A stretch of 64,000 nt of DNA from a virus. A program made the translations under genes and the position numbers. The stretch lies in IMG/VR virus record IMGVR_UViG_3300021426_000096. One strand, given 5' to 3'. The notes under the pieces were generated by a model. It worked only from the letters and a program-made list of their open reading frames with translations, was not told where the DNA came from and made no database searches. Positions 3,529-40,905 of the stretch are shown one piece after another; position 1 is the stretch's first letter, and the number at the start of each line of letters is the position of its first letter.

Positions 3529-3550
3529 CCTTTGCGACGACGATGTACGA

Positions 3551-3584
3551 AAAAAGGAGAGTGAATAACTTCACCCTCCTTTTC
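3551..3584. terminator. bidirectional rho-independent terminator between convergent genes
   Basis: aaaaAGGAGAGTGAAtaacTTCACCCTCCTtttt hairpin flanked by A-run and T-run. Confidence 0.6.
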
Positions 3585-3587
3585 ATT

Positions 3588-3881
3588 TTAAGTACACTGA
3601 TTTTCTTCATCATATGGATCACTATCTGCATAATCCTCTCCTTTTGGAATTGGGTCTTTAAACCTTTTCTCAAACACACCTATACCCAAGAGAGCAAATG
3701 CACCAATCATCATAGTCATAATTGCTTCACCAAGCCAAACTGCCTGAACATCCCTGAATATACTTATTACAATAACTGTAAGAAGTGTAAGAAGTATCAA
3801 TACACCAAGCACACGCTTTGATGATATACGTCCATTGGCACCAGATAACATCGAGCCCCAAAAACTATTCTTCTTTTTCAT
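3588..3881 (-). CDS. small two-TM membrane protein (holin-like topology, speculative)
   Basis: Minus ORF taken from MKKKNSFWG; the upstream extension in the ORF table overlaps the + promoter. Two hydrophobic helices; only minus-strand gene in the first 45 kb. Confidence 0.4.
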   Translation of the reverse strand: MKKKNSFWGSMLSGANGRISSKRVLGVLILLTLLTVIVISIFRDVQAVWLGEAIMTMMIGAFALLGIGVFEKRFKDPIPKGEDYADSDPYDEENQCT

Positions 3882-3918
3882 ATTGTTATATATTTGTTTG
3901 AAATATTTATGAAAAAAA

Positions 3919-3950
3919 TTTGGATATATCAAAAAAATGTTGTATCTTTG
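3919..3950 (+). promoter_or_regulatory. Bacteroidetes sigma-A type promoter (-33 TTTG / -7 TAtcTTTG)
   Basis: TTTG 3919-3922, TATCTTTG 3943-3950, 20-nt spacing, ATG at 3978. Confidence 0.65.
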
Positions 3951-3977
3951 TAGTGTCAAATAGAAAGAATAAAGTTA

Positions 3978-4180
3978 TGACGAAAGAAGAAATTTTAAAT
4001 AAAGTAAGAAATATAACAACCACTACAGAAAGAAACAGTATGGGTTGTTCTGAGAACTGGTACAACTGGTTCTATGCTTTAAGGGAGACCTTTGGAATTG
4101 AGAAACTGGAAAAGATGTCAGAAGAGGAGTTGAATGACCTCTTGAAACTGGCAGAAGTATTAGCAGATGCATTTTATTAA
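3978..4180 (+). CDS. hypothetical protein
   Basis: Start set at MTKEEIL downstream of the promoter; the 5' extension in the ORF table runs through the promoter. Confidence 0.45.
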
Positions 4181-4195
4181 ACTGTACTAACTATA

Positions 4196-4468
4196 TTGTT
4201 GGATATGAAGACTGATAAAGAACTCTACCCTATCTTTCAGGTTGACACCTGTATCCAGTCATACTCCATTGAGTACACTCTGATTGGTGCCAAGGATTTG
4301 GAGGATCTCCTCCAGCATCTCCCCGACATCTTGAAAGAGATGGATAAACCTTACAAAGAAAGGAGACAGTTAATGAAGGAATACAAAACCTGGCCTCCTG
4401 AAATTATTGAAGGTGCTTACACAGACAATCCTTATGAACCTCTGTCCACCTTTGCCTATTATGAGTAA
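4196..4468 (+). CDS. hypothetical protein
   Basis: 90-aa ORF. Confidence 0.5.
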   Translation: MLDMKTDKELYPIFQVDTCIQSYSIEYTLIGAKDLEDLLQHLPDILKEMDKPYKERRQLMKEYKTWPPEIIEGAYTDNPYEPLSTFAYYE

Positions 4469-4471
4469 CTG

Positions 4472-4488
4472 ACGACTACGAACAACGA
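4472..4488 (+). repeat. RCGA-triplet intergenic motif (ACGA-ct-ACGA-aca-ACGA)
   Basis: Immediately 3' of the 4468 stop. Confidence 0.7.
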
Positions 4489-4505
4489 AAAAATACAGAG
4501 AGTTA

Positions 4506-4670
4506 TGTTTAACATTTTTGAAAAAGACATGAACACTGGTAAATCCAAGTTCTTTGTGAAGGTATCCAGCAGGAAAGAAGCAGAATCCCGGGTAAGGGAG
4601 ATGAATGCTGATTCCCTGTTTGAAGATAAGTTCTACTTCTTCAAGGAGGAAAATTCAAAAGATGAATAAC
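4506..4670 (+). CDS. small hypothetical protein (54 aa)
   Basis: ORF MFNIFEKDMNTGKSKFFVKVSS... below the 60-aa cut-off of the track; fills a gap. Confidence 0.3.
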
Positions 4671-4775
4671 TTCATACATATAATTTTTGTATTCTCCATT
4701 GTATGCTTTGGATGTGCTGTGTGGGTGTACTTCTATGCAAAAAACCATGACAAGCATTAAAAAAGTGTAAAAAAA

Positions 4776-4807
4776 TTTGGAATTATCATTTTTTTCTTGT
4801 ATCTTTG
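4776..4807 (+). promoter_or_regulatory. Bacteroidetes-type promoter repeat
   Basis: TTTG 4776-4779, TATCTTTG 4800-4807. Confidence 0.65.
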
Positions 4808-4827
4808 TATCAGAAAGTAATAATGAT

Positions 4828-5157
4828 ATGAAACAGACCAAAAAAGAAATTGAAGCAACACTTAGAAATAAGATTTGCAAACAATACACATCAAGGATTG
4901 ACAGCCTCAATGAAAAGATTAAGACGTTGAGTGAAAATCTTATTGATGAGAGGAAAAAGAGGATTGAAATCCAAAAGAAGTATGAGGAGATTGAGGATAA
5001 AGTCCAAAAGTATGAAGACTGGAACAGAAGACTCCAGGAATTTATGGATATGAATGAAGAGGACAGGGAACTTGCTTTTGCTGAAATGAAAACCAATAAG
5101 AAACTTGGTGAGTTTGCAGATATGTGCAAAAATCTTTTTGGAATTATTATGTTTTAA
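4828..5157 (+). CDS. coiled-coil protein
   Basis: Start MKQTKKEIE after the promoter; K/E-rich heptad-like sequence. Confidence 0.5.
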   Translation: MKQTKKEIEATLRNKICKQYTSRIDSLNEKIKTLSENLIDERKKRIEIQKKYEEIEDKVQKYEDWNRRLQEFMDMNEEDRELAFAEMKTNKKLGEFADMCKNLFGIIMF

Positions 5158-5172
5158 AAAAACAAAAGTATT

Positions 5173-5358
5173 ATGAATGACAAGCAACTTTTTATTGAGG
5201 TGTTCAAGAACTTCCAGGAGAACTACTATGGTCTGGAAATGAAGGGTACTCTTGTTTATTACAAGGGTGAAGCCCAGTTCAACACTGATGGATACAATCT
5301 CTGTTATAACCTCCTTCGTCTCACCAAGATGCTAGAAGAAGCTGGTGAACTGAAGTAA
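5173..5358 (+). CDS. hypothetical protein
   Basis: 61-aa ORF. Confidence 0.45.
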   Translation: MNDKQLFIEVFKNFQENYYGLEMKGTLVYYKGEAQFNTDGYNLCYNLLRLTKMLEEAGELK

Positions 5359-5373
5359 AAACCATAAATCATT

Positions 5374-5586
5374 ATGAAACTCATTTATGTAAAATCCACC
5401 GATGGGACTGAACACTATATCAATCCCATTCATGTAGAAGAGGTCAAGGTTGTCAAGTCTGATCTCAGCAAAGATTGGTGTATTGCAATCTCCAGTAATG
5501 GAAAGGTACACACAATCCTCTGTAAAACCCAGAAGGAAACTAATGAAAAACTGGCAGAAATCAAGTCTGCTATGGAATCTATCTAA
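5374..5586 (+). CDS. hypothetical protein
   Basis: 70-aa ORF. Confidence 0.45.
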   Translation: MKLIYVKSTDGTEHYINPIHVEEVKVVKSDLSKDWCIAISSNGKVHTILCKTQKETNEKLAEIKSAMESI

Positions 5587-5635
5587 TCAAAAATATTCCC
5601 ATCCTTGATTTCCACTTTGTTCGGATGGTGATGTG

Positions 5636-5663
5636 GTGGCCAGATGCAAGCTGGCCACTTTTT
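5636..5663 (+). terminator. rho-independent terminator
   Basis: GTGGCCAG-atgcaag-CTGGCCAC followed by TTTTT. Confidence 0.55.
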
Positions 5664-5677
5664 GTTATATTTAATGT

Positions 5678-6541
5678 ATGATAATACCTCCAATAAAGAT
5701 ACAGGGTAAGAAAACCAAACTGGTTCCAAGAATTATGGAGATTGCCCAAGAACAACTGGATGAGCATCCAGAGATTGACACCTGGGTAGAACCATTCCTG
5801 GGATCTGGTGTTGTTGCTTTCAACTGCCCAAACAGAATCAAGAATGTGATAGTGAATGACATCAATCCTCACATCATCAAGTTCTACAAAGGGATTGCAG
5901 ATGAGGTCATCACTCCTGAAAAAATAAAAGAGGTCTTCACTGAACACAGTAAGAAACTTCTCACTGGTGGGAATGACTACTACAATGAGGTCAAGAACAG
6001 GTTCAACCAGACCTTTGAAACAATGGACTTCCTCTTTCTTACCAGAACCGGGTTCAATGGTGTGATGAGGTTTAATGGTTCCGGAAAATGGAATGTTCCT
6101 TTCTGCAAACTTAATGACAGACTCTCAAACAAGGTAATAGATGAACTTTCCAGGTCCGTAGAAGAACTTTCTCATCTGTTTGGTACAAAGACCTTCACTT
6201 TCTATAACACTTCATTTGAGAAGGTTTTAGAGGTATCTCCTGCCAATTCAATTTTCTATTGTGATCCTCCTTACTATGGTTTACAGGTCCAGTACTTCAA
6301 AGGATGGGGGAAAGAAGATGAAATCAGACTCAACCAGATGTTAAAGGATAAGGTATTCATATATTCAACCTGGCTCAATGATGGTATCAAAGACAATCCA
6401 ATGATTGATGAGTATTGGAAGGACTTTGAGGTTGAGAGTAAAGCGCACAAATACAATGTGGCAGAGAAATCCAGTGAGAGAAACCAAGTGGTTGAAGGAA
6501 TAATATATAAAAAAGTTGACAATCCCTATTCCCTGTTTTAA
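5678..6541 (+). CDS. dam: DNA N6-adenine methyltransferase, Dam / D12 class
   Basis: EPFLGSGVV (FxGxG AdoMet motif), NPHIIKFYK, CDPPYYG (DPPY catalytic motif), FLTRTGFNG. Confidence 0.85.
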   Translation: MIIPPIKIQGKKTKLVPRIMEIAQEQLDEHPEIDTWVEPFLGSGVVAFNCPNRIKNVIVNDINPHIIKFYKGIADEVITPEKIKEVFTEHSKKLLTGGNDYYNEVKNRFNQTFETMDFLFLTRTGFNGVMRFNGSGKWNVPFCKLNDRLSNKVIDELSRSVEELSHLFGTKTFTFYNTSFEKVLEVSPANSIFYCDPPYYGLQVQYFKGWGKEDEIRLNQMLKDKVFIYSTWLNDGIKDNPMIDEYWKDFEVESKAHKYNVAEKSSERNQVVEGIIYKKVDNPYSLF

Positions 6542-6545
6542 CACT

Positions 6546-6562
6546 ACGACTACGATTTACGA
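6546..6562 (+). repeat. RCGA-triplet intergenic motif (ACGA-ct-ACGA-ttt-ACGA)
   Basis: 4 nt after the dam stop, upstream of promoter 6604. Confidence 0.7.
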
Positions 6563-6603
6563 AAGATGAAGAACAAAAAATTCTTCATCTTTTTTCATTT
6601 TTA

Positions 6604-6635
6604 TTTGGATAATTCAAAAAAATCCATTATCTTTG
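6604..6635 (+). promoter_or_regulatory. Bacteroidetes-type promoter repeat
   Basis: TTTG 6604-6607, TATCTTTG 6628-6635, ATG 6658. Confidence 0.6.
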
Positions 6636-6657
6636 TAGTGTAAAAAGAAAACAAGAT

Positions 6658-6981: not shown

Positions 6982-6993
6982 AAACACAACACA

Positions 6994-7500: not shown

Positions 7501-7502
7501 TT

Positions 7503-12063: not shown

Positions 12064-12080
12064 GCGATGACGATATACGA
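12064..12080 (+). repeat. RCGA-triplet intergenic motif (GCGA-tg-ACGA-tat-ACGA)
   Basis: After the 12052 stop. Confidence 0.7.
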
Positions 12081-12082
12081 AT

Positions 12083-12116
12083 CACCTGCCCTTTAAGGGT
12101 GGGTGATTTTTTTTTG
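12083..12116 (+). terminator. rho-independent terminator
   Basis: CACCTGCCCtttaaGGGTGGGTG followed by T9. Confidence 0.5.
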
Positions 12117-12135: not shown

Positions 12136-12167
12136 TTTGGAATTGTCATTTTTTTCTTGTATCTTCG
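12136..12167 (+). promoter_or_regulatory. Bacteroidetes-type promoter repeat (variant -7 TATCTTCG)
   Basis: TTTG 12136-12139, TATCTTCG 12160-12167; a 165-nt leader precedes the sigma-factor ATG. Confidence 0.55.
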
Positions 12168-12210
12168 TAGTGGGAAATAAAATTAAAGATTATGTACAAT
12201 ATACTGTAAT

Positions 12211-12252: not shown

Positions 12253-12331
12253 TGGTATAATTCTTGATAATTTAGTGAAAGAAATCAAGAACCAGGTAGT
12301 ATATATAAGTGTAACAAACAAAACAAAACAT

Positions 12332-13165
12332 ATGATCAACTACACCAACATCAATGAGAACATCAACATCTACTTCAAGGAGATTCGTAAGTTCTCTTCT
12401 CTCACCAGGAAGGATGAGATGATTCTGTTTACCCAGATTTCCAATGGAGACAAGAGGGCAGAGACAGAAGTGTTCAACAAGATGTCCAAGTTAGCAGTCA
12501 ACATTGCCAAGACATATACCTGTAACCCCGAACTCCTGGAGGATCTCATCCAGGAGGCCAATATGGGTATCCTTACTGCCATCAAGAAGTATGATATGGA
12601 TGCAGGTTACAGGTTCTCCTCTTATTCCCGTTGGTGGATGAAGGCATACATTGGTAAGTTCCTGGAAGAGATGGGTATTGTCCATCATTGTAACCCTGTC
12701 ATCATCAAGAAGGCCAACAAGATTCGGGAGCAGTTCTATATGGAAAACCATAGGGACATCTCCGAGTATGAACTGATGGATAAGCTTGAGGAGATGGGTG
12801 AGATTGTCAATGACATCTCCACCATCCTCAACATCACCAGTGTCAGGATTGATATGCCTGTGTCAGAGGATGATGTCATCACCAAGAAGGATATGGGTGT
12901 GTTCGCTGATCGCACCGCATCTACCAATTCCTTTGTGGAAGAGGAAGAGAATGAGACTCTCTCTTCTGACATTGCCAAGAGACTGGTCAAACTCACCCCC
13001 AGGGAGCAGCAGCTCATCCTGATGAAGTTTGGGTTTGTATCTGGATATGAGATGGATTACAAGTCCATTGCTGAAAAGTGGAATGAGGGTAAGTCTGAAA
13101 AGGAACAGCTCACCCAGGAAAGGGTTCGCCAGTTGGTGATTGGTGCTCTCAAAAAAATGAAGTAA
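12332..13165 (+). CDS. sigma-70 family RNA polymerase sigma factor
   Basis: Region 2: DLIQEANMGILTAIKKYD..GYRFSSYSRWWMKAYI (DLIQEGNIGLMKAV.KFD..GYKFSTYATWWIRQAI); region 4: LTPREQQLILMKFG...TQERVRQL. Confidence 0.85.
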   Translation: MINYTNINENINIYFKEIRKFSSLTRKDEMILFTQISNGDKRAETEVFNKMSKLAVNIAKTYTCNPELLEDLIQEANMGILTAIKKYDMDAGYRFSSYSRWWMKAYIGKFLEEMGIVHHCNPVIIKKANKIREQFYMENHRDISEYELMDKLEEMGEIVNDISTILNITSVRIDMPVSEDDVITKKDMGVFADRTASTNSFVEEEENETLSSDIAKRLVKLTPREQQLILMKFGFVSGYEMDYKSIAEKWNEGKSEKEQLTQERVRQLVIGALKKMK

Positions 13166-15034: not shown

Positions 15035-15089
15035 CTTTACGGTTGCGATCTGCGAATAAAAAAAAATCTGCAAAAAAGTGTAAAAAAAT

Positions 15090-15120
15090 TTTGTAGTCTC
15101 GTTTTTTTATTGTATCTTTG
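15090..15120 (+). promoter_or_regulatory. Bacteroidetes-type promoter repeat
   Basis: TTTG 15090-15093, TATCTTTG 15113-15120. Confidence 0.6.
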
Positions 15121-15158
15121 TATCAAGAAAAGGAAACAAACTAAAAACAATACAAACC

Positions 15159-16016: not shown

Positions 16017-16033
16017 ACGATAACGATTTACGA
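16017..16033 (+). repeat. RCGA-triplet intergenic motif (ACGA-ta-ACGA-ttt-ACGA)
   Basis: After the 16013 stop. Confidence 0.7.
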
Positions 16034-16076: not shown

Positions 16077-16108
16077 TTTGGAATTGTCACAGAAAAACAT
16101 TATCTTTG
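16077..16108 (+). promoter_or_regulatory. Bacteroidetes-type promoter repeat
   Basis: TTTG 16077-16080, TATCTTTG 16101-16108. Confidence 0.6.
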
Positions 16109-16146
16109 TAATGTAATAAGAAATTAACCTCTAACACACAAAAGAC

Positions 16147-16401
16147 ATGAGCATCAAGAAAGTTACTAACGAAGAACTTCGTAAGATGATGATGGAAGGT
16201 CCGGTCACCTTCCAGTACAAGAAGAATGATGGGACTATCCGCCAGGCTGTGGGTACTCTCAAGTCCAGTCTTATCACCAAGAAACCGGCTGGTGGACAGA
16301 ACAAGGTAAAGGATGCTGGTTACTCCACCTACTTTGACATTGAGAAGGACTGGTGGAGGGCTTATGCAGAGTCCCGCCTTATTGGTGTGGTTGAACCCTA
16401 A
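16147..16401 (+). CDS. hypothetical protein, FQY(K/R)K...YFD(I/V)EK.(D)WRAY family
   Basis: Paralogous to the C-terminal half of 18241..18654. Confidence 0.5.
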   Translation: MSIKKVTNEELRKMMMEGPVTFQYKKNDGTIRQAVGTLKSSLITKKPAGGQNKVKDAGYSTYFDIEKDWWRAYAESRLIGVVEP

Positions 16402-18177: not shown

Positions 18178-18240
18178 ATCCTGCGACTACGAAGTGGACA
18201 ATACCGTAAATATAGTATACAACTAAACAGCTTAATAACT

Positions 18241-18654
18241 ATGAGTGCATGGGGTGATATGATGAAAAGAGGTTCAGGTGAGGAAGAAAGAATAGAAGAT
18301 AAATCTATCTTCCTTGAAGTTACTGATGGTTTCAAACCTTCCACACTTGAAAATATGATGAAAGAGGGTATTGTTCACTTCCAATACAGAAAGAAACCCA
18401 AGAAAGGTCAGACAGTAGGTGAAATCAGAGATGCTTGGGGAACCAAGAATATGTCTGTTGTCTCCAAGATTCCTCACGGTGGAGACTGTCCACCAAAGAG
18501 AGTGGGTTATACCATCTACTTTGATGTGGAGAAGGCTGATTGGAGAGCCTACTGGGATGGAAATGTGATTGGTGCATGGAGTAAAGTATACACAGAAGAA
18601 GAGTTTCATAAAGAACTTGCCAAGGAATTGGAAGAAGAAACTCCCACAGAATAA
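18241..18654 (+). CDS. hypothetical protein (paralog family with 16147 and, N-terminally, 24719)
   Basis: MSAWGDMMKRGSGEE N-terminus shared with 24719 (MTAWGDMMKRGVGEG); C-terminus shared with 16147. Confidence 0.5.
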   Translation: MSAWGDMMKRGSGEEERIEDKSIFLEVTDGFKPSTLENMMKEGIVHFQYRKKPKKGQTVGEIRDAWGTKNMSVVSKIPHGGDCPPKRVGYTIYFDVEKADWRAYWDGNVIGAWSKVYTEEEFHKELAKELEEETPTE

Positions 18655-20185: not shown

Positions 20186-20202
20186 ACGATGACGATTTGC
20201 GA
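20186..20202 (+). repeat. RCGA-triplet intergenic motif (ACGA-tg-ACGA-tttg-CGA)
   Basis: Between the ATCTGGACAA iterons and promoter 20235. Confidence 0.7.
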
Positions 20203-20234: not shown

Positions 20235-20266
20235 TTTGGATATATCGGAAAAATGTATTATCTTTG
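20235..20266 (+). promoter_or_regulatory. Bacteroidetes-type promoter repeat
   Basis: TTTG 20235-20238, TATCTTTG 20259-20266. Confidence 0.6.
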
Positions 20267-20293
20267 TAGTGGAAACAAAAAGATAAACAAGAT

Positions 20294-24718: not shown

Positions 24719-25183
24719 ATGACAGCATGGGGTGATATGATGAAGAGGGGAGTAGGTGAAGGTATAAGAGGAGAAGATTTCTCACAAATCTACTACGACA
24801 ACGATGATGCGAAGAAACCAATAGTTGTTGAGGAGAAAGAGTATAAAAGTTTCTCTTATTTCATCTGCACTAATGGTGATTATCCTATCCTGGACATCAG
24901 GACAGATGGGCATGGTATATCTGTCTTCTCTGGATACAGTGTGGTCGCCCTGAAATTCCCTGACATTGGTAGTTATGAGTTGAAAAGGGAACTGTTGAAT
25001 GGTAATGAGACCAAGTATCTGTATGAGTTCAACAAGAATGGAGATTACATCCACAATACAGAGAACCAAACCAAAGATGGAGATGGTCATAAGTACACAG
25101 TCAAGGAACTGGAGGAATATGCAGAGAAATTCATTGACAGAATCATTGAATGTGAGGATGAGAAATTTAAGCACACTGATTAG
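24719..25183 (+). CDS. hypothetical protein (N-terminus paralogous to 18241)
   Basis: MTAWGDMMKRGVGEG. Confidence 0.5.
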   Translation: MTAWGDMMKRGVGEGIRGEDFSQIYYDNDDAKKPIVVEEKEYKSFSYFICTNGDYPILDIRTDGHGISVFSGYSVVALKFPDIGSYELKRELLNGNETKYLYEFNKNGDYIHNTENQTKDGDGHKYTVKELEEYAEKFIDRIIECEDEKFKHTD

Positions 25184-25319
25184 TGATGTGTCTGAAATTC
25201 ACTGACATAAGATGATCATGTAATGAACAGATATCTATAAATATAGTATGGTATATTATACAATAGACTGACGAACACGGACTGCGATAATAAAAAATTG
25301 CAAAAAAAGTTTAAAAAAA

Positions 25320-25351
25320 TTTGGAGATTTCGTTTTTTTGTTGTATCTTTG
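25320..25351 (+). promoter_or_regulatory. Bacteroidetes-type promoter repeat
   Basis: TTTG 25320-25323, TATCTTTG 25344-25351. Confidence 0.6.
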
Positions 25352-25386
25352 TACCAGGAAAGAATATATAATAAAACACAATAGCT

Positions 25387-26010: not shown

Positions 26011-26059
26011 TCCGCAATCCGCAATCGCCTGATGTTTGTTGCTTAATACTTATTAATAT

Positions 26060-30353: not shown

Positions 30354-30370
30354 GCGATGGCGAACTGCGA
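30354..30370 (+). repeat. RCGA-triplet intergenic motif (GCGA-tg-GCGA-act-GCGA)
   Basis: After the 30351 stop. Confidence 0.7.
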
Positions 30371-30424: not shown

Positions 30425-30456
30425 TTTGGTGGTTTCAAATAATTGTTGTATCTTTG
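30425..30456 (+). promoter_or_regulatory. Bacteroidetes-type promoter repeat
   Basis: AAATTTGGTGG...TTGTATCTTTGTAATGG. Confidence 0.6.
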
Positions 30457-30482
30457 TAATGGAAACAAAAAACAACAACACC

Positions 30483-31204: not shown

Positions 31205-31356
31205 TATGAAAGTTTACAACCAATCTGCTTTTATCCCGGACTTCCCTATCTGCATCAGTTCTTCCCACAGTAACATCTCCATGACATTGCAGGATGCCAA
31301 GAATCTGGCAGATCAGTTGAGAGAAGTAATCAATGACATTGAAAAGAAAAAGTAAT

Positions 31357-31563
31357 ATGACACAGAAAGAATTAGATAAATGGTTCAACAGCCTGGACTC
31401 CTTTGAGGTTGCCGAAATCTTCCCCAGTCTCTATGAAGAGGTGATGGAATCTGCTGATCCGGAAAGGAGTGACATCAACCACTTTGTCAAGGAGGCAAAA
31501 TCTGATTGGAAGGGTATGACCAAGGAGGAGAAGGAAAAGTATTACCATCTAGTGGAGGGTTAA
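31357..31563 (+). CDS. hypothetical protein
   Basis: Start at MTQKELDKW. Confidence 0.4.
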   Translation: MTQKELDKWFNSLDSFEVAEIFPSLYEEVMESADPERSDINHFVKEAKSDWKGMTKEEKEKYYHLVEG

Positions 31564-31851: not shown

Positions 31852-31868
31852 GCGATAGCGAAGTGCGA
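31852..31868 (+). repeat. RCGA-triplet intergenic motif (GCGA-ta-GCGA-agt-GCGA)
   Basis: After the 31848 stop. Confidence 0.7.
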
Positions 31869-31902
31869 TGGTCTGAAATTCACTGAAAAAAGTGTAAATA
31901 AA

Positions 31903-31934
31903 TTTGGTAGTCTCATTTTTTTATTGTATCTTTG
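31903..31934 (+). promoter_or_regulatory. Bacteroidetes-type promoter repeat
   Basis: TTTG 31903-31906, TATCTTTG 31927-31934. Confidence 0.6.
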
Positions 31935-31957
31935 TAATAGGAAAAGAGAACAAGACT

Positions 31958-33583: not shown

Positions 33584-33672
33584 TAATAGAAAACATCAAA
33601 AAATATATACAACTTCCAACTGCGCTGACGATTGCGATAACCTGAAATTCACTGACAAAAAGTACAAAAAAA

Positions 33673-33704
33673 TTTGGTAGTTTAAAAAAAATGTTGTATC
33701 TTTG
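33673..33704 (+). promoter_or_regulatory. Bacteroidetes-type promoter repeat
   Basis: TTTG 33673-33676, TATCTTTG 33697-33704. Confidence 0.6.
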
Positions 33705-33736
33705 TAACAGAAAGAAATATTGTAAGAACAACTAAT

Positions 33737-34254: not shown

Positions 34255-34688
34255 CAGACATCAACATCAAGAATCAGGTTGACCATCCTGTAATGGTTCT
34301 CCATCTCCTGGAAAGAGAGGATCTGGAATCCTTGAAGACCCAGCAGCTGATAGACATGCTCCGGTATGAGAAGATCCAATATGGAGGAGACTATGACTTC
34401 TGTGACCAGGTCTATGACAATGGATACAATACGCTCCAGTACAGGATGACAGAGTATGGACAGTATACCAGGGAGGAAGTCCAGCAGTACAGCAACTATG
34501 TTGAGGTGAAGAATTACCAGGAGAGCTCAGCCCTGTTGGAGTTCACTTATGCTGACAGGAATCAACTGAAAGAGATCCTCAAGAGTAGACCCCACATCCC
34601 TAACAAGATGGAGAGGAAGAATCTGACCCGGATGGAGATCCAGAAGAGTAAGGGTAAGACCAAGAGGAATATGAAATACAAACGATAA
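34251..34688 (+). CDS. hypothetical protein
   Basis: 145-aa ORF. Confidence 0.5.
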   Translation: MTDINIKNQVDHPVMVLHLLEREDLESLKTQQLIDMLRYEKIQYGGDYDFCDQVYDNGYNTLQYRMTEYGQYTREEVQQYSNYVEVKNYQESSALLEFTYADRNQLKEILKSRPHIPNKMERKNLTRMEIQKSKGKTKRNMKYKR

Positions 34689-34697
34689 CGATCGACG
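34681..34697 (+). repeat. RCGA-triplet intergenic motif (ACGA-ta-ACGA-tcg-ACGA)
   Basis: Spans the 34688 stop. Confidence 0.65.
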
Positions 34698-34699
34698 AT

Positions 34700-35116
34700 A
34701 TGGACATTAATGAAATCAGGCAGCGCATTGCAGAACTGGCCAAGGAAAAGGAACTCCTGGAAGGGAATCTCCAGGAAGCAATGGTCAATGCCATCCAGGA
34801 GATTGCCAAAGAGAATCCATATGATATCAAGAAGACATCAGGGTTCAAGATGATGACCATCTCCTCATCCCAACTAGCATCCAAACCCTGGTCTATGGAC
34901 TTCTTTGATTGGGAATCATCTGCGGCTGCGGTTCTGAAGTACCTGGAGAAGACACCCATCACCAACTGGAAGAAGAAGTTGGAGGAACTCCTGGAAACCA
35001 AGGGAGATGTAATTGAACTCAAGAGAAGAGGAACTGGTATCCTGGGATACAAAGGGATTGTCCAGCAGACACTCATTGACAGGAGGTTCATTGAGAAGAT
35101 TATTGAGAGGATATAA
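34700..35116 (+). CDS. hypothetical protein
   Basis: 138-aa ORF. Confidence 0.5.
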   Translation: MDINEIRQRIAELAKEKELLEGNLQEAMVNAIQEIAKENPYDIKKTSGFKMMTISSSQLASKPWSMDFFDWESSAAAVLKYLEKTPITNWKKKLEELLETKGDVIELKRRGTGILGYKGIVQQTLIDRRFIEKIIERI

Positions 35117-35120
35117 TCTG

Positions 35121-35137
35121 ACGACTGCGACATACGA
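35121..35137 (+). repeat. RCGA-triplet intergenic motif (ACGA-ct-GCGA-cat-ACGA)
   Basis: After the 35116 stop. Confidence 0.7.
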
Positions 35138-35170
35138 AATCTGAAATCCACTGAAAAAAGTTAAAATAAA

Positions 35171-35202
35171 TTTGGTGGTTTCAGATTTTTGTTGTATCTT
35201 TG
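35171..35202 (+). promoter_or_regulatory. Bacteroidetes-type promoter repeat
   Basis: TTTG 35171-35174, TATCTTTG 35195-35202. Confidence 0.6.
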
Positions 35203-35222
35203 TAATAGAAAAAGAGAGCAAT

Positions 35223-36034: not shown

Positions 36035-36253
36035 ATGACTGAACAGCAGAAAAGACAACTGGATAACCACAACAAGCAGGTGGTTAAGCATGTTATCATT
36101 GCCCTTGTGGAATCCAATATGGCAGACCCCATCAGGCTTTTGACTGACACCGATTATGCATCCCAGATGGTATCCACTTACCTGGAGGCATCCAACATTG
36201 TAAGGGAATCTATGAACCTTCCTCCTTTGGTCATCTATGACATCAAGGATTGA
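36035..36253 (+). CDS. hypothetical protein
   Basis: 72-aa ORF. Confidence 0.45.
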   Translation: MTEQQKRQLDNHNKQVVKHVIIALVESNMADPIRLLTDTDYASQMVSTYLEASNIVRESMNLPPLVIYDIKD

Positions 36254-36269
36254 CGACTGCGATTTGCGG
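36253..36269 (+). repeat. RCGA-triplet intergenic motif (ACGA-ct-GCGA-ttt-GCGG)
   Basis: Overlaps the 36253 stop. Confidence 0.65.
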
Positions 36270-36295
36270 TCAATTGCAAAAAAGTGAAAATAAAT

Positions 36296-36326
36296 TTGGA
36301 TAATTCAGAAAATTGTTGTATCTTTG
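36296..36326 (+). promoter_or_regulatory. Bacteroidetes-type promoter repeat
   Basis: TTTG 36296-36299, TATCTTTG 36319-36326. Confidence 0.6.
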
Positions 36327-36362
36327 TAATGAAGAAAGGAAACAACTAAAAAACCAAAGAAT

Positions 36363-36715: not shown

Positions 36716-36790
36716 GGTCTCATAGTTCAACGGATAGAACAGCAGTTTCCTAAACTGTAGATCTGGGTTCGATTCCCGGTGAGACTACCA
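36716..36790 (+). tRNA. tRNA-Arg (anticodon CCU), CCA encoded
   Basis: Cloverleaf GGTCTCA/TGAGACT acceptor, GTTC-AACGGATA-GAAC D arm, GCAGT-TTCCTAA-ACTGT anticodon arm (CCT), AGAT variable loop, CTGGG-TTCGATT-CCCGG T arm, discriminator A, then CCA. Confidence 0.8.
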
Positions 36791-37428: not shown

Positions 37429-37432
37429 ACAT

Positions 37433-37861: not shown

Positions 37862-37883
37862 ACCATTAATTAAATTATTTAAT

Positions 37884-38153: not shown

Positions 38154-38394
38154 TACTATGACAACAATCACTATCTTCATCCTGCCGGCCCTGGCCCTGG
38201 TCATCTACATCCTTCTTCTCCAGTGGATCTCCACTTCACTCAAGACCAGACACTCTGCCTTCTGGTGGATGTTCTTCCTGACCATCCCTCTGGGTGTGAT
38301 CATCACTCTGTTGCTGGACATCAAGGACAACACCTACCCTATGTATGAGGTGGACTCCACTGATGACCCTACCCAATATGACCATCTGCGGTAG
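38140..38394 (+). CDS. small two-TM membrane protein
   Basis: ITIFILPALALVIYILLL and WWMFFLTIPLGVIITLLL. Confidence 0.45.
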   Translation: MKPASTMTTITIFILPALALVIYILLLQWISTSLKTRHSAFWWMFFLTIPLGVIITLLLDIKDNTYPMYEVDSTDDPTQYDHLR

Positions 38395-38423
38395 CGCCAC
38401 CGCCAATTAGACCTATAACCTTT

Positions 38424-38948
38424 ATGAATGCCATTGCAGTCTACCACCATCCCCAAGAATGTGGATCCCCTTACCTCACCTTCATCTCCCAGGAGACAGG
38501 TGAGGTGGTGGAGACTGTTGACATCCCTGATGGGTATTATGACTCTGGACTCAAGACACTGGACATCTATACTCCTGTCTACTCCTTCACAGAACAGGTA
38601 AACCAATCACCCAAACCCACAGTGGACAATGTCAGGCTCAACTGTTCCTTCTACCCTAACCCCAAGAGGTATGTCTTCAAGGTGACCAAGGTGGACAACA
38701 TCAAGTATGACCCTAAGATCATACCCACCTGGACAGCAGATGTGCATGTTGATGCATGTACCCATACCACCAAGTGGCAGTACTCAACCAAGAGAGACTC
38801 ATTCAGAAAGCAGCTCCAGAAAGCAGGATTCAATATGAAACCCTGGACACTGACCAAGAGGATGAAGACTCCCTTTATGGACTTCCTCAAATCTGTTGCC
38901 TCCTCCTATAAAGATTACCATCTGGTCAACCTGATTCAGATTGGATAG
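38424..38948 (+). CDS. hypothetical protein
   Basis: 174-aa ORF followed by a terminator. Confidence 0.5.
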   Translation: MNAIAVYHHPQECGSPYLTFISQETGEVVETVDIPDGYYDSGLKTLDIYTPVYSFTEQVNQSPKPTVDNVRLNCSFYPNPKRYVFKVTKVDNIKYDPKIIPTWTADVHVDACTHTTKWQYSTKRDSFRKQLQKAGFNMKPWTLTKRMKTPFMDFLKSVASSYKDYHLVNLIQIG

Positions 38949-38951
38949 ACT

Positions 38952-38979
38952 CACAGTGATATTACTGTGGGTTTTTTTG
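38952..38979 (+). terminator. rho-independent terminator
   Basis: CACAGTgatattACTGTG followed by GGTTTTTTT. Confidence 0.6.
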
Positions 38980-39036
38980 TTTTGCGGTGGCGACCTGCGG
39001 TTTCTGAAATTCACTGAAAAAAAGTGTAAATAAATT

Positions 39037-39066
39037 TTGTAGATTAAAATCTTTTTTGTATCTTTG
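39037..39066 (+). promoter_or_regulatory. Bacteroidetes-type promoter repeat
   Basis: TTTG 39037-39040, TATCTTTG 39059-39066. Confidence 0.55.
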
Positions 39067-39112
39067 TATCAGAGATAAAGAAAGAAGTTAAACCAATAAA
39101 ATTATAAGTGAT

Positions 39113-39796
39113 ATGAATCCTCAGATGTTTGCTGCCACTGAAAATGAGAAGATTATGTATGTTGTCAATGATGTGCTTGGTGCCACCTCTCCCAAGACAG
39201 CTGTTGACATGAGAACCATTGTTGACAAAGGTATTGACCTTGGTCTGACCCATGATTACCCCAGAGGCAGGCAGGATGGTCATCCCTGGTGGCCTCACAC
39301 TGCTGTGATGATGGGTGTGGGTAGTCCCACTGCTGTGGAGAACTTTGAAGAACCCTACCTCCACAGAAACAAGATGAAGAAAGGGAATACCAGAGTCAGG
39401 ATGTACTACTGGGTTGACAAATCCCACAGACATGAGATGGTAACCAAGGATGCCAAGGCAACCAAGTATGGTGAATCCACTACAAATAAGGTACACATCC
39501 CCAGAGTCAAGGTGTCCACTGACCCTGCTCTTATGACCAAGGTATGTGACTACCTTGACAAGAAAGGATACAAGTATCTCTTTGGTATCCAGGGAAGCAC
39601 CCACATCCTCACTCTCAACCTGTGTGGTGAATACTTCCTTCACATCCCTGTCACCACTGAAACTGCTGACAGAGTACTGGGACTCATCCCTTACTTCTTT
39701 CACAGACCTGATTATGCCAAGGAAGAAATCCCTGGCGCATACATCAAGAAGAACTGGAAGCTCAAGAATATCTGGAACACCTGTACTTCCAAGTAA
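39113..39796 (+). CDS. hypothetical protein, GHPWW family (paralog of 15159..15773)
   Basis: See 15159; the 261-aa antisense ORF 39044..39829 is rejected. Confidence 0.6.
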   Translation: MNPQMFAATENEKIMYVVNDVLGATSPKTAVDMRTIVDKGIDLGLTHDYPRGRQDGHPWWPHTAVMMGVGSPTAVENFEEPYLHRNKMKKGNTRVRMYYWVDKSHRHEMVTKDAKATKYGESTTNKVHIPRVKVSTDPALMTKVCDYLDKKGYKYLFGIQGSTHILTLNLCGEYFLHIPVTTETADRVLGLIPYFFHRPDYAKEEIPGAYIKKNWKLKNIWNTCTSK

Positions 39797-39814
39797 ACCA
39801 AACACCTCCTTACC

Positions 39815-39852
39815 AAGAGACTCTCCCAACCAAGGAGGGTCTCTTCCATTTT
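39815..39852 (+). terminator. stem-loop terminator candidate
   Basis: AAGAGACTCTCCCaaccaaGGAGGGTCTCTT. Confidence 0.4.
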
Positions 39853-40407
39853 AACATGGTTGTCAGCCCGGTGGAGATTCTCCAGCAGCTGGACCTTGGT
39901 CCAGGACCTGATGACCATGGGTCACCAGCATGGGTCACTCCTATCCAACCACTCTCCATCTCCTCTCATCTCATTGCGACCTGCGCCAATCGCATCCAAA
40001 AATTTTTCCATCAGGATGTTTCATCTCCATCAGAGTTCTCATCAGGATAATTATCTCCTCATCTGATTCCACTCTTCACTCTTTTCTATACTATAGTCTT
40101 CTACTTCCAGGAATTCTTCCAGGAAAAGATCTACTTCTGTTAAATTTCCACCCCTGTATATTCATTTTCACCAAAAAACACCCAATTTCATCTTTTTCCC
40201 CAGTACAGATATTCCTGGAAATACTGTATTTCCCCATTTTTAACCAATATGACAAAATGTCAGAAAATCACCTTTTTTGACATTTTTCACAAGATCTGTC
40301 AAAATCACACTTTTCCACTTTTCCCCATTTTTCCAAAAAACCAAAAAATCACCTTTTTTCACTGCGATGGCGATTTTTGCAAAATACCCAATTTTCCCAT
40401 TTTCCCC

Positions 40408-40600
40408 AAAATGCCCATTTTTGGGATATCCTGGATTTTGGCTATTTTGGGGATATCCTGGAAAATGGGGTTTTCCAGAAAATGGCCATTTTTGGGGTTT
40501 TGGAGGATCTTCCAAAAATGGCCAATTTTGGGGTTTTTGGGAAAATGGTCAAAAATGGGGTTTTCTGGGGATACCCCCAAAATGGTGATTTTTGGACGAT
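40408..40600. repeat. degenerate 27-35 bp tandem units carrying CC(A/T)6GG boxes in both orientations
   Basis: CCATTTTTGG (40412, 40482), CCAAAAATGG (40512), CCAATTTTGG (40522), CCAAAATGG (40577); GGGATATCCTGG twice. Confidence 0.7.
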
Positions 40601-40905
40601 CACGATGTGCGACTTCCCCCACACGCACTATATGGAGGGGAGTATCTTACAAACTCCTGGGGAGTCTTTCTATATTTTTTTAATATATATATTTTGATAA
40701 TCCATTTTGTGTAATTTGTAAGTCATTGATTTTCAGTCTATTTCATATAAGTTATTGGTACACAAAGTGGAAGAAAATGGAAGAAAGTGGTAAATATAGT
40801 AAGTGGATGTCAGAAATTAAGGTAGATCACCCAAATTATATGCAAAATACAGACATTGTATGACCACTTTTGTTATATTTGTATATAGAGATATAATAGT
40901 AATAT

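What the first reader, a model, noticed from the sequence alone, without database searches (positions are those of the whole stretch)
3534..40612. Conserved RCGA-N2-RCGA-N3/4-RCGA intergenic motif at gene 3' ends
More than 20 intergenic sites carry three (A/G)CGA tetramers with fixed spacing, for example ACGActACGAtttACGA, GCGAtgACGAtatACGA, GCGAtggCGAactGCGA. Nearly all lie within 0-10 nt of a stop codon, sometimes including it, and 30-60 nt upstream of the promoter cassette. Three more copies sit in the non-coding 39.8-40.9 kb region. They are not hairpins. The regular phasing suggests a protein-binding site (an anti-terminator, a nucleoid-like protein or the phage sigma factor) or an RNA-processing signal that separates the short operons. 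I do not recognise it as a known element.
Basis: seen in the sequence. Interest (0 to 1): 0.6.

Follow-up and report, generated by a model that had tools for sequence, protein, structure and literature searches.

The report
Phage operon-boundary triple-RCGA protein site
A 17-base signal made of three (A/G)CGA words is real, strongly non-random and conserved in a lineage of uncultivated giant Bacteroidetes phages, where it marks the boundaries between short operons; it is most likely the docking site of an unknown phage DNA-binding regulator, not an RNA-processing signal.

Summary
RCGA-N2-RCGA-N3-RCGA occurs 11 times exactly in the window, always on the + strand, against 0 in dinucleotide-preserving shuffles. 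With RCGG variants, one inverted copy and degenerate copies there are about 20 sites, although CpG is depleted about five-fold. The window is part of a giant Bacteroidetes-type phage with -33/-7 promoters and its own sigma factor. The motif recurs in relatives (344-kb and 411-kb IMG/VR contigs, 56 gut and rumen metagenome contigs): 172 sense and 19 inverted copies in about 420 kb. Orthologous junctions keep the CG cores while spacers change. It precedes 79% of promoter cassettes, at about 32, 41 or 52 bp (10.5-bp periodicity), always in one orientation. Copies without a promoter, at stop-ATG junctions, occur in both orientations. When non-coding DNA or a terminator separates gene end and promoter, it stays with the promoter. 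Other phages use the same core promoter without it. Best reading (about 0.45): a double-stranded DNA site for a lineage-specific protein, forming the distal upstream element of one co-regulated promoter class. Main rival (about 0.25): a single-stranded RNA 3'-UTR site. No Rfam family or paper found describes it. Function is inferred, not shown.

The parts
3534..3550 (+). Exact motif GCGACGACGATGTACGA. It lies 5 nt after stop 3528 and is followed by a bidirectional terminator hairpin and a convergent - strand gene. No promoter follows.
   Evidence: orthologues L170, L178 keep it
4472..4488 (+). Exact motif ACGACTACGAACAACGA. It lies 3 nt after stop 4468. The next ORF starts 16 nt later, with no promoter between.
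6546..6562 (+). Exact motif, 4 nt after stop 6541. It is followed by terminator hairpin 6561-6593 and promoter 6604-6637 (41 nt to TTTGG).
12064..12080 (+). Exact motif, 11 nt after stop 12052. It is followed by terminator 12079-12109 and promoter 12136-12169 (55 nt), which drives the sigma-factor gene 12275-13165.
15039..15055 (+). Variant ACGGTTGCGATCTGCGA (one RCGG), 4 nt after stop 15034. Promoter 15089-15122 follows at 33 nt.
16017..16033 (+). Exact motif, 3 nt after stop 16013. A hairpin abuts promoter 16077-16110 (43 nt). The first gene downstream encodes a WYL_2 protein (16147-16401).
18183..18199 (+). Degenerate copy GCGACTACGAAGTGGAC (two of three tetramers), 5 nt after stop 18177 and upstream of the second WYL_2 gene (18241-18654).
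20186..20202 (+). Exact motif, 110 nt from the preceding stop (20076) but 32 nt from promoter 20235-20268. Here it tracks the promoter, not the stop.
25271..25287 (+). Variant ACGAACACGGACTGCGA, 32 nt before promoter 25320-25353.
26012..26028 (-). Inverted copy (the + strand reads CCGCAATCCGCAATCGC), 1 nt after stop 26010 and 31 nt before the next ATG. No promoter follows. It is conserved in this orientation in L147, L149, L150 and L152.
30354..30370 (+). Exact motif, 2 nt after stop 30351. It is followed by a canonical terminator with a T-run, an A-tract element and promoter 30425-30458 (54 nt).
31852..31868 (+). Exact motif, 3 nt after stop 31848. Promoter 31903-31936 follows at 34 nt.
33622..33637 (+). 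Degenerate copy GCGCTGACGATTGCGA (6/6 spacing), 35 nt before promoter 33673-33706.
34682..34698 (+). Exact motif that contains stop 34686-34688 and ends 1 nt before the ATG at 34700. It lies inside an operon, with no hairpin and no promoter. The CG cores are conserved in the orthologues L128, L137 and L143 while the spacers and the stop codon change; it is lost in L144.
35121..35137 (+). Exact motif, 4 nt after stop 35116. It is followed by a hairpin whose 3' arm is the -33/spacer region of promoter 35171-35204 (33 nt).
36253..36269 (+). Variant ACGACTGCGATTTGCGG, overlapping the TGA stop at 36251-36253. Promoter 36295-36328 follows at 25 nt.
38984..39000 (+). Variant GCGGTGGCGACCTGCGG. It lies downstream of a canonical terminator hairpin plus T-run and 34 nt before promoter 39035-39068.
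39976..39994 (+). Partial motif-like cluster GCGACCTGCGCCAATCGCA in the non-coding region.
40364..40380 (+). Partial copy GCGATGGCGAtttttGC inside the repeat-rich non-coding region. A partial copy sits at the same place in L146 and L168.
40596..40612 (+). Exact motif at the right edge of the repeat-rich non-coding region. It is followed by two hairpins and an AT-rich stretch. It is conserved at the same position in L146 and L168.
6604..6637 (+). Example of the Bacteroidetes-type promoter cassette (TTTGG, about 20 nt, TATCTTTGTA) that follows the motif. The others are at 12136, 15089, 16077, 20235, 25320, 30425, 31903, 33673, 35171, 36295 and 39035. Cassettes at 3919, 4776, 35404 and 61738 have no motif.

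Best explanation
The three-tetramer array ((C)TG-RCGR-YN-RCGR-NYT-RCGR-AA; A is strongly preferred at the fourth position) is most likely the binding site of a sequence-specific protein. That protein is probably encoded by this phage lineage and reads the array as double-stranded DNA. In about three quarters of cases the array is the distal upstream element of a composite intergenic cassette: array, then a terminator-like hairpin, then a phased A-tract (UP-like) element, then the -33 TTTGG and the -7 TAnnTTTG. In these cases it sits in one fixed orientation, a whole number of helical turns (2-5) upstream of the -33 element. From there a bound protein could contact RNA polymerase or bend the DNA. 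This would switch, as one class, the many short operons of one genome module (host-takeover or accessory genes, including the phage sigma factor). Whether the switch activates or shuts off cannot be told. The position outside the core promoter fits a class-I-type activator or architectural role better than simple occlusion. The minority of copies inside operons, at stop-ATG junctions and in either orientation, would be extra binding sites of the same protein (attenuating roadblocks, or anchors for cooperative binding or looping). Shown: non-randomness, conservation, selection on the CG cores and spacing, association with promoters, orientation rules, periodic spacing, and restriction to this lineage and module. 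Inferred: that a protein binds, that it reads duplex DNA, that it is phage-encoded, and what it does to transcription.
For: (1) The motif is not chance: 11 exact hits against 0 expected, in a genome with CpG o/e 0.21. (2) It is under selection. About 420 kb of related DNA holds 172 sense and 19 inverted non-redundant copies. Orthologous gene junctions, found through the upstream protein only, keep the CG cores while the spacers, the R positions and the stop codons change; where the element is lost, the CpGs decay to TG/CA. The spacing is 2/3 nt in 164 copies, 2/4 in 10 and 2/5 in 3. (3) It is tied to promoters: 128 of 163 distinct promoter cassettes have a copy within 110 nt upstream, and 12 of 15 in the window's module, which is an unbiased sample. 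(4) The distance from the motif to the -33 element clusters at about 32, 41 and 52 nt. The Rayleigh maximum is at a period of 10.5 nt (R 0.55, n=128; R 0.58, p about 5e-6 on 37 spacer clusters). (5) Orientation is fixed only at promoters: 128 sense to 0 inverted there, against 35 to 19 without a promoter. By junction family the counts are 38:0 against 17:8, Fisher p = 2.8e-4. The inverted copies keep the same spacer preferences and are conserved in orthologues. This is natural for a duplex DNA site and not for a single-stranded RNA site. (6) Where non-coding DNA or a canonical terminator lies between gene end and promoter, the motif stays 24-54 nt from the promoter (W 20186, W 38984, L157, L174, L128, L133, L144). 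At those sites it lies downstream of the transcript's expected 3' end. (7) It is specific to this lineage and to one module. The same core promoter occurs in 77 loci of other phages (710 kb, 168 promoters), and only a 411-kb relative has the motif. Other modules of the same phages have a terminator and promoter but no motif (W 61738, L254, L198). The motif-plus-promoter pattern has no match in one genome of each of 185,579 bacterial and archaeal species. (8) Copies also flank a conserved repeat-rich non-coding region for which no promoter cassette was found.
Against: (a) No binding protein was identified. The window's Pfam hits include no classical HTH or RHH regulator, only a sigma factor, an HMG-box-like protein and a C2H2-like protein. 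(b) About 17-22% of sense copies have no promoter. Several of these sit exactly between a stop codon and the next ATG (1-3 nt before the ATG) and are conserved in four to six phages. A promoter-distal element does not explain them without an added assumption. (c) At the two convergent gene ends (W 3534, L001 233) the motif stays with the gene end and terminator, not with the next promoter. (d) The 10.5-nt periodicity rests largely on three cassette architectures built from modules of fairly constant size. At the level of architectures the coincidence is only about p 0.1. (e) In most sites a hairpin starts 0-3 nt after the motif. In some relatives the motif lies in a hairpin loop (L169, L159, L124), which would suit single-strand recognition. 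(f) The second spacer tolerates 3-5 nt, which is easier for a flexible or single-strand reader than for a rigid duplex reader. (g) The metagenome loci were fetched with a pattern that required a sense motif 25-55 nt upstream of a promoter. This inflates the promoter association and limits the distance range; the window and the additional sites in each locus are unbiased.
Confidence: 0.45

Rival explanations
1. The motif is a single-stranded RNA element in the 3' UTR. In the mRNA the three RCGA words, exposed just after the stop codon and flush against the terminator hairpin, bind an RNA-binding protein. This resembles the spaced NAG triplets read by HutP or TRAP. A candidate binder is one of the phage's Sm-like WYL_2 proteins. 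The bound protein would tune termination or read-through, mRNA 3'-end stability or cleavage. At stop-motif-ATG junctions it would control translation of the next cistron.
For: 90% of copies are on the sense strand. 87 of 98 start between -14 and +12 nt of a stop codon. A hairpin begins 0-3 nt downstream in most sites, and 37 sites have a canonical terminator right after the motif against 5 before it. The motif lies in a hairpin loop in some relatives. Sixteen copies end 1-3 nt before an ATG. At convergent gene ends the motif stays with the gene end. The second spacer is flexible. Two WYL_2 (Sm-like fold) genes each follow a motif site.
Against: The 19 inverted copies (8 junction families) are conserved in the same niche, and as RNA they would be a completely different sequence. 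Some copies lie downstream of canonical terminators or far from the stop but close to the promoter. The 10.5-nt periodicity to the promoter has no RNA rationale. The motif does not overlap the terminator stem, as HutP, TRAP or RAT sites do. No Rfam family matches.
Confidence: 0.25
2. The motif works as a polar DNA roadblock or insulator that couples termination to the next promoter. A protein bound to the duplex array stops or slows read-through polymerases at operon ends and shields or primes the next promoter. RNA polymerase I terminator-binding proteins (TTF-I, Reb1) do this upstream of rDNA promoters. Copies inside operons would act as attenuators.
For: The motif lies at operon boundaries, both with and without promoters. 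Orientation is fixed at boundaries that carry a promoter. Copies lie just after a terminator T-run in W 38984, L144 and L143, where a roadblock would hold the polymerase on the U-tract. Terminators are embedded in the next promoter, so read-through would occlude it.
Against: In most sites the array lies upstream of the hairpin. A roadblock there would stall the polymerase inside the end of the coding region, before the terminator is transcribed. Canonical terminators without the motif exist in the same window (5635, 9708, 61.7 kb). No experimental handle is available.
Confidence: 0.12
3. The motif is a replication, recombination or nicking signal. It would be read on DNA by a primase or helicase loader, a nickase (as at the strand-specific nicks of T5-like phages) or a recombination protein. 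It would sit in intergenic DNA only because three CpGs cannot be accommodated in CpG-poor coding sequence.
For: Copies occur on average every 2.3 kb with a strand bias. Copies flank a conserved repeat-rich, origin-like non-coding region. Both orientations exist.
Against: The motif is tightly linked, in phase and in orientation, to one promoter class. It is absent from other modules of the same genomes. Nothing ties it to replication direction independently of transcription.
Confidence: 0.07
4. The motif is a hitch-hiking end of a duplicated or mobile promoter cassette. It would be the left end of an intergenic unit that spreads by duplication or recombination, like the promoter-early stem-loops of T4-type phages, and would have little function of its own.
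For: Many cassettes share a recurrent spacer (ATGAAATYCACTGAAAAAAGTG...) between motif and promoter. Paralogous cassettes fall into 38 spacer clusters.
Against: The spacers between the tetramers and the flanks diverge freely, while three CpGs are retained in a genome that loses CpG. Solo copies without a cassette are conserved across four to six phages. The spacing is strict.
Confidence: 0.05
5. The motif acts by RNA-RNA pairing. Sense copies (RCGR, which can pair with UCGU through A-U or G-U) would pair with inverted copies or with an unknown RNA carrying (UCGU)3, creating duplexes for processing.
For: Positions 1 and 4 of each tetramer tolerate only transitions (A/G in sense copies, C/U in inverted copies). 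Sites with two or three RCGG tetramers are commoner than independence predicts (0:122, 1:32, 2:11, 3:7).
Against: No (UCGU)3 partner exists in the window apart from the single inverted copy, and that copy matches only 12-13 of 17 positions of the window's sense copies (hand comparison of two copies). The spacers are not conserved, as a fixed partner would need. The predicted pairing with the TTGT words of the -7 region disappears in promoters of the ATTATC type.
Confidence: 0.03

Closest known systems
Class-I-type upstream activator sites (E. coli CRP at -61.5/-71.5/-82.5/-92.5; phage phi29 p4 centred near -82 of the late A3 promoter) (my own knowledge)
   Same: A protein site lies outside the core promoter, upstream of an A/T-rich UP-like element. 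It is usable at several distances that differ by whole helical turns, in a fixed orientation. In phi29 the site serves a phage temporal switch.
   Different: Those sites are inverted repeats for dimers. This one is three direct 4-bp words spaced 6 and 7 bp apart. About a fifth of copies have no promoter. No activator is known, and the core promoters already look like consensus promoters.
Lambda CII sites (TTGC-N6-TTGC) and other direct-repeat phage or plasmid operators, such as the 7-bp heptad arrays bound by the ribbon-helix-helix omega repressor of pSM19035 (my own knowledge)
   Same: Short tetramer or heptamer words occur in direct repeat. In omega arrays the repeat length is about 7 bp and units occur in direct or inverted orientation. 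Binding is cooperative, by small phage or plasmid proteins.
   Different: CII and omega sites overlap the -35 region. This array lies 2-5 turns upstream. The 6/7 asymmetry and the CpG cores are new. No RHH or CII-like gene was detected.
HutP and TRAP RNA targets (three or more NAG triplets separated by 2-4 nt next to a terminator) (my own knowledge)
   Same: Three or more short words with fixed short spacers lie beside an intrinsic terminator on the sense strand. The element itself has no secondary structure.
   Different: Those elements overlap the terminator or antiterminator stem, sit in 5' leaders and exist only in the sense orientation. This element is at 3' ends, does not overlap the stem, and is inverted in 10% of copies. 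No HutP or TrpBP domain was seen among the Pfam hits.
REP/BIME elements of enterobacteria and pseudomonads (a conserved GTAG tetranucleotide 5' of an extragenic palindrome at gene 3' ends) (my own knowledge)
   Same: A short conserved word lies immediately 5' of a hairpin, just after stop codons, in many copies per genome and in both orientations.
   Different: In REPs the palindrome itself is the conserved repeat, and a RAYT transposase-like gene goes with it. Here the hairpins are unrelated in sequence, the conserved part is the non-palindromic array, and the element tracks promoters.
RNA polymerase I terminator elements bound by TTF-I or Reb1, including the promoter-proximal terminator (my own knowledge)
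   Same: An oriented protein-binding DNA element lies at the end of one transcription unit and just upstream of the next promoter. It could act on both.
   Different: That is a eukaryotic system with one gene type and Myb-like binding proteins. Nothing of this kind is established for phage or bacterial sigma-dependent promoters.

Membership tests
Intrinsic (hairpin) terminator | G+C-rich inverted repeat followed by a T-run | tested here: not met
   The 17-mer has no self-complementarity. Hairpins and T-runs are separate, adjacent elements. Canonical terminators also exist without the motif (5635, 9708, 61.7 kb).
HutP/TRAP-type RNA-binding attenuation site | Repeated short words with fixed 2-4 nt spacers in unstructured RNA | tested here: met
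   Three RCGR words; spacers of 2 and 3 nt in 164 copies.
HutP/TRAP-type RNA-binding attenuation site | The site overlaps the terminator or antiterminator stem, so that binding decides which structure forms | tested here: not met
   The hairpin starts 0-3 nt after the motif. The motif is outside the stem, or in a few relatives inside the loop.
HutP/TRAP-type RNA-binding attenuation site | Functional only on the transcribed (sense) strand | tested here: not met
   There are 19 conserved inverted copies in 8 junction families.
HutP/TRAP-type RNA-binding attenuation site | A cognate HutP or TRAP (TrpBP) protein is encoded | tested here: inconclusive
   Neither domain is among the 25 of 26 Pfam families listed for the window's 110 ORFs. 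Only 64 kb of a genome probably longer than 300 kb was examined.
Upstream (class-I-like) transcription-factor site | Located upstream of the core promoter at positions that keep the helical phase | tested here: met
   Distances to the -33 element cluster at about 32, 41 and 52 nt (a few at 21-25). The Rayleigh peak is at 10.5 nt. Caveat: three cassette architectures account for most of this.
Upstream (class-I-like) transcription-factor site | Consistent orientation relative to the promoter | tested here: met
   128 sense and 0 inverted copies upstream of promoters.
Upstream (class-I-like) transcription-factor site | Present only where there is a promoter to regulate | tested here: not met
   About 17-22% of sense copies and all inverted copies have no promoter cassette downstream.
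Upstream (class-I-like) transcription-factor site | A protein binds the duplex and changes promoter activity | not testable with these tools
   This needs gel-shift or pull-down experiments and reporter assays.
REP/BIME-like extragenic repeats | The palindrome itself is a conserved repeated sequence | tested here: not met
   The hairpins after the motif differ in sequence from site to site.
Rho utilisation (rut) site | A long (about 60-80 nt) C-rich, G-poor unstructured RNA with YC dinucleotides | tested here: not met
   The element is 17 nt long, and each C is preceded by a purine and followed by G.
Any described RNA family (Rfam 15) | Match to a covariance model | tested here: not met
   Only tRNA-Arg matched at the gathering threshold. 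Nothing matched at motif sites at E up to 5.

The most novel reading that the evidence does not exclude
The array, with its unknown binder, could form a sequence-specified operon-boundary system in SD-less Bacteroidetes phages. A protein bound at the array, on duplex DNA or on the exposed single strand or nascent RNA, would both end the upstream transcription unit and set up the next promoter. This would be a bacterial-virus counterpart of the polymerase I TTF-I/Reb1 coupling of terminator and promoter. The small Sm-like WYL_2 proteins encoded next to two arrays are candidate readers.
Probability: 0.15. Interest if true: 0.75.

Novelty: new variant of a known kind. Interest (0 to 1): 0.5.

Why it matters
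Gene regulation in giant uncultivated gut and rumen phages of Bacteroidetes is essentially unknown. This motif defines a co-regulated class of dozens of short operons. These include the phage sigma factor, RNA-repair genes (the Thg1-like gene lies just upstream of the module) and an anti-defence gene. The motif also gives a simple sequence handle for three tasks: recognising the lineage in metagenomes, fishing out the regulator by DNA or RNA pull-down, and mapping transcription units without culture. If the binder acts on both termination and initiation, or reads single-stranded nucleic acid, that would be a new regulatory principle for bacteria that lack Shine-Dalgarno-based translation. If it is an ordinary activator or repressor site, it is still the first cis-regulatory code for this phage group.

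Tried and rejected
1. Chance or composition: rejected by dinucleotide-preserving shuffles.

2. The motif as a hairpin, or pairing with the TTGT words of the -7 region, which RNAfold suggested: the pairing is not kept in promoters of the ATTATC type, so rejected.

3. Pairing between sense and inverted RNA copies: the window's inverted copy is complementary to the sense copies at only 12-13 of 17 positions, so rejected.

4. A codon-level explanation (in-frame CGA codons after a leaky TGA-C stop): the stop-to-motif offsets fall in all three frames (about 42, 24 and 23 sites), so rejected.

5. A target-site duplication (AATCTGA on both sides of 35121): seen in only one orthologue group.

6. Rho rut site: the composition is wrong.

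7. Known RNA families: none match.

8. Cultured relatives: no megablast match in 50,697 phage records. The sigma factor is less than 30% identical to any of them.

9. An exact-word scan of IMG/VR returned mostly chance hits in coding sequence, such as ITNYE in helicases.

10. RNAalifold on the 32-nt-class cassettes gave no consensus structure, because the MAFFT alignment put the 5' arms out of register. I replaced it with a test of cognate against non-cognate duplexes and of one strand against the other.

11. A first promoter-only scan used the wrong gap range and found nothing; it was repeated correctly.

12. Three literature searches found no description of the motif; a fourth query was rejected by the tool and did not run.

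13. The genes downstream of stop-motif-ATG sites were translated. They are diverse small proteins with no obvious nucleic-acid-binding signature; they were not followed further.

Full report

The pattern RCGA-N2-RCGA-N3-RCGA has 11 exact matches in the 64-kb window. All are on the + strand, and none appeared in 100 dinucleotide-preserving shuffles. Allowing one mismatch gives 15 matches against 0.03 expected.

An unconstrained search for any three RCGA words within 18 nt shows that the start-to-start spacing is 6 then 7 in every intergenic case. A weight-matrix scan adds variant or degenerate copies at 15039, 18183, 25271, 38984 and 40364; 36253 came from the one-mismatch search. A relaxed RCGR search adds one inverted copy at 26012-26028.

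CpG is depleted about five-fold (o/e 0.21 in the window, 0.33 in related DNA). An element with three CpGs is therefore even less expected than the shuffles suggest.

I find 16 solid sites and about 20 in all. The position statements are largely right and are checked in section 3.

**2. What is the window?**

The intergenic 'promoter cassettes' read TTTGG, about 20 nt, then TATCTTTGTA. This is the -33 TTTG / -7 TAnnTTTG promoter type of Bacteroidetes (my own knowledge).

The ORFs include:
- a sigma factor (12275-13165)
- a D12-class DNA methyltransferase
- a Thg1-like enzyme
- an RNA ligase
- SmpB
- NADAR
- an Acb3 anti-CBASS protein
- two giant paralogous proteins on the - strand

There is no close match among 50,697 phage records. 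The nearest relative in IMG/VR is a 344.7-kb contig whose sigma factor is 56% identical. The window therefore belongs to an uncultivated giant Bacteroidetes-type phage.

**3. Is the motif conserved?**

The 21-kb stretch of the 344-kb relative around its sigma gene has six exact copies and one with a single mismatch. All are on the gene strand and in the same context.

A scan for 'motif, 25-55 nt, promoter' gave three results:
- only that contig in IMG/VR
- 56 stretches in gut and rumen metagenomes
- nothing in one genome for each of 185,579 bacterial and archaeal species

In about 420 kb of this family's DNA there are 172 non-redundant RCGR arrays on the promoter strand and 19 on the other strand.

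I located orthologous junctions using only the C-terminal 60 residues of the upstream protein. These junctions keep the three CG cores while other features change: the first and fourth tetramer positions (A/G), both spacers, and the type and position of the stop codon. Where the element has been lost, the CpGs have decayed to TG or CA.

The spacing is 2/3 nt in 164 copies, 2/4 in 10 and 2/5 in 3. All this shows purifying selection on a specific recognition surface.

**4. Anatomy of the surroundings**

In 87 of 98 cases the array starts between -14 and +12 nt of the stop codon of a substantial ORF. The commonest arrangement is a TGA that overlaps cTGACGA.

Of 163 distinct promoter cassettes in the family, 128 have an array within 110 nt upstream. 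In the window, which is unbiased, the figure is 12 of 15 in the 3.9-39 kb module.

Between array and promoter there are three recurrent architectures:
- About 32 nt: a hairpin whose 3' arm is the -33/spacer region of the next promoter.
- About 41 nt: a hairpin that abuts the -33 element.
- About 52 nt: a canonical terminator with T-run, followed by an A-tract, UP-like element.

For the 32-nt class, the arms are more stable read on the sense strand than on the opposite strand (Wilcoxon p = 6e-6). So G-U pairs are used and the hairpins are RNA-level terminators. Cognate arms pair only marginally better than non-cognate arms (p = 0.055).

**5. DNA or RNA?**

Features that favour an RNA 3'-UTR element:
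- The sense bias.
- The position just after the stop codon.
- The hairpin that starts 0-3 nt downstream (37 canonical terminators just after the array against 5 before it).
- Placement of the array in a hairpin loop in some relatives.
- Sixteen copies that end 1-3 nt before the next ATG.
- Two convergent gene ends where the array stays with the gene end, not the promoter.

Features that favour a duplex-DNA site:

(i) Inverted copies are real. About 0.01 would be expected by my rough estimate, and 19 are seen. Fifteen of the 19 start 0-12 nt after a stop. They keep the same spacer preferences when read on the other strand, and they are conserved in orthologues.

(ii) Orientation is fixed only where a promoter follows: 128:0 there, against 35:19 elsewhere. 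By junction family the counts are 38:0 against 17:8, p = 2.8e-4.

(iii) The distance to the -33 element has a 10.5-nt period.

(iv) When extra non-coding DNA or a canonical terminator separates gene end and promoter, the array stays 24-54 nt from the promoter. It then lies downstream of the expected transcript end.

(v) Arrays flank a conserved, repeat-rich non-coding region.

I weigh (i), (ii) and (iv) most heavily. A single-stranded RNA reader cannot explain conserved inverted copies or copies downstream of terminators.

The post-stop position and the abutting hairpin can be explained by compaction. The terminator-promoter unit is tightly packed. The only free space is between the stop codon and the hairpin, where roughly 15-20 nt of spacer is needed anyway to keep a terminating ribosome off the hairpin (my own knowledge).

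There are two caveats. The periodicity is carried mostly by three architectures, so it is weaker than the nominal p-value. The metagenome loci were also selected for one sense, promoter-linked copy each.

**6. Specificity**

The same core promoter (AAATTTGG-N14-20-TGTATCTTTGTA) occurs in 84 IMG/VR stretches from many phages. Among the 77 stretches not already held (710 kb, 168 promoters; two of them are from the 344-kb family contig), only one has arrays. It comes from a 411-kb contig that is clearly a relative.

Within the lineage, other genome modules have a terminator and promoter but no array (W 61738, L254, L198).

So the promoter is the generic host type, and the array is an add-on specific to this lineage and to one module. 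This implies a lineage-encoded reader and a co-regulated class of promoters. That step is inference.

**7. Mechanism proposed**

A phage protein binds the duplex array. It could be an oligomer or a three-module protein that reads RCGR words 6 and 7 bp apart.

At promoters, it sits on one face of the helix, 2-5 turns upstream of the -33 element, next to phased A-tracts. From there it would switch the whole class of short operons together. The geometry resembles class-I activators or phi29 p4 more than an occluding repressor, but the direction of the effect is unknown.

Copies inside operons, in either orientation, would be additional binding sites acting as attenuators or cooperative anchors.

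Confidence is about 0.45. The rivals are:
- an RNA 3'-UTR protein site (0.25)
- a polar DNA roadblock coupling termination to the next promoter (0.12)
- a replication, nicking or recombination signal (0.07)
- a passive end of a duplicated cassette (0.05)
- RNA-RNA pairing (0.03)

**8. Comparison with known systems and novelty**

No Rfam family matches, and three literature searches found no description of the motif.

The element works most like an upstream transcription-factor array. It shares its form (short direct words) with lambda CII sites and omega heptads, and shares its location with REP elements and with HutP/TRAP sites. It fails defining features of each of these (see the membership table).

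I rate it a new variant of a known kind: a cis-regulatory protein-binding array, unusual in three ways. It has a triple-CpG design in a CpG-poor genome. It sits after the stop codon at the head of a fused terminator-promoter cassette. It occurs in two orientations when no promoter follows.

Interest is moderate (0.5). The element is real, clean and experimentally tractable, but its function is inferred only.

Noticed in passing
window 35138-35204 (also 31869-31936; many family loci): In the 32-nt class of cassettes, the terminator hairpin of the upstream operon uses the -33/spacer region of the next promoter as its 3' arm. Its U-tract lies in the promoter spacer, so termination would occur inside the next promoter. 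The arms are more stable on the sense strand than on the opposite strand (G-U pairs).
   Followed up: partly
window 40150-40700: A repeat-rich non-coding region with units such as AAAATGG(G/C)C and CCAAAAAT spaced about 9-10 and 27-37 nt apart. It is followed by two hairpins and an AT-rich stretch (40677-40700). It is conserved in L146 and L168 and looks like a replication origin or another protein-coated region. In relatives it is bracketed by an inverted and a sense copy of the motif.
   Followed up: partly
whole window; family loci: CpG is strongly depleted (o/e 0.11-0.24 across the window, 0.33 in family loci). Other Bacteroidetes-type phages with the same promoter have a median of 0.69. 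GpC (0.60) and TpA (0.71) are also low. The cause is unknown; restriction avoidance or modification are possibilities.
   Followed up: partly
window 62847-63392 (+): The phage encodes SmpB, the protein partner of tmRNA (Pfam E 7e-52; 38% identical to E. coli SmpB). No tmRNA gene was found in the window.
   Followed up: partly
window 16147-16401 and 18241-18654 (+): Two small paralogous WYL_2 (DUF2693, Sm-like SH3 barrel) proteins, each near a motif site: the first is the first gene after motif 16017 and its promoter, the second starts 41 nt after the degenerate copy at 18183. A third partial paralogue (24719-25183) contains the only N4-spaced motif hit, inside its coding sequence.
   Followed up: partly
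window 31333-31563 (+) and 59223-59393 (+): Weak matches to an HMG-box (76 aa) and to a C2H2 zinc finger (56 aa). Both would be unusual in phages and are possible DNA-binding proteins.
   Followed up: no
window 45773-50971 and 50959-57420 (-): Two adjacent giant paralogous proteins (1732 and 2153 aa) that both hit PHROG 9915 (unknown function). They are the only long - strand genes. They lie between two + strand modules that lack the motif.
   Followed up: no
window 40900: A sharp module boundary. G+C drops from about 0.43-0.47 to 0.35 and GC skew jumps to +0.27 to +0.35. Beyond it, both the promoter cassette and the motif disappear, until a single cassette at 61738.
   Followed up: no
window 36716-36790 (+): A tRNA-Arg(CCT) gene inside the motif-bearing module. 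This fits a genome that avoids CGN arginine codons.
   Followed up: no
window 31873-31893, 35141-35161, 39004-39025 and many family loci: A recurrent element, CTGAAAT(T/C)CACTGAAAAAAGTG, lies directly after the motif. It contains a mini-hairpin (CACT-GAAAAA-AGTG) and the first A-tract. It may be a second protein site or part of the UP-like element.
   Followed up: no
family loci: RCGG tetramers cluster within sites (counts per site 0:122, 1:32, 2:11, 3:7). Whole sites can be of the GCGG-GCGG-GCGG type. This could mark a second specificity class or a relaxed requirement at position 4.
   Followed up: partly
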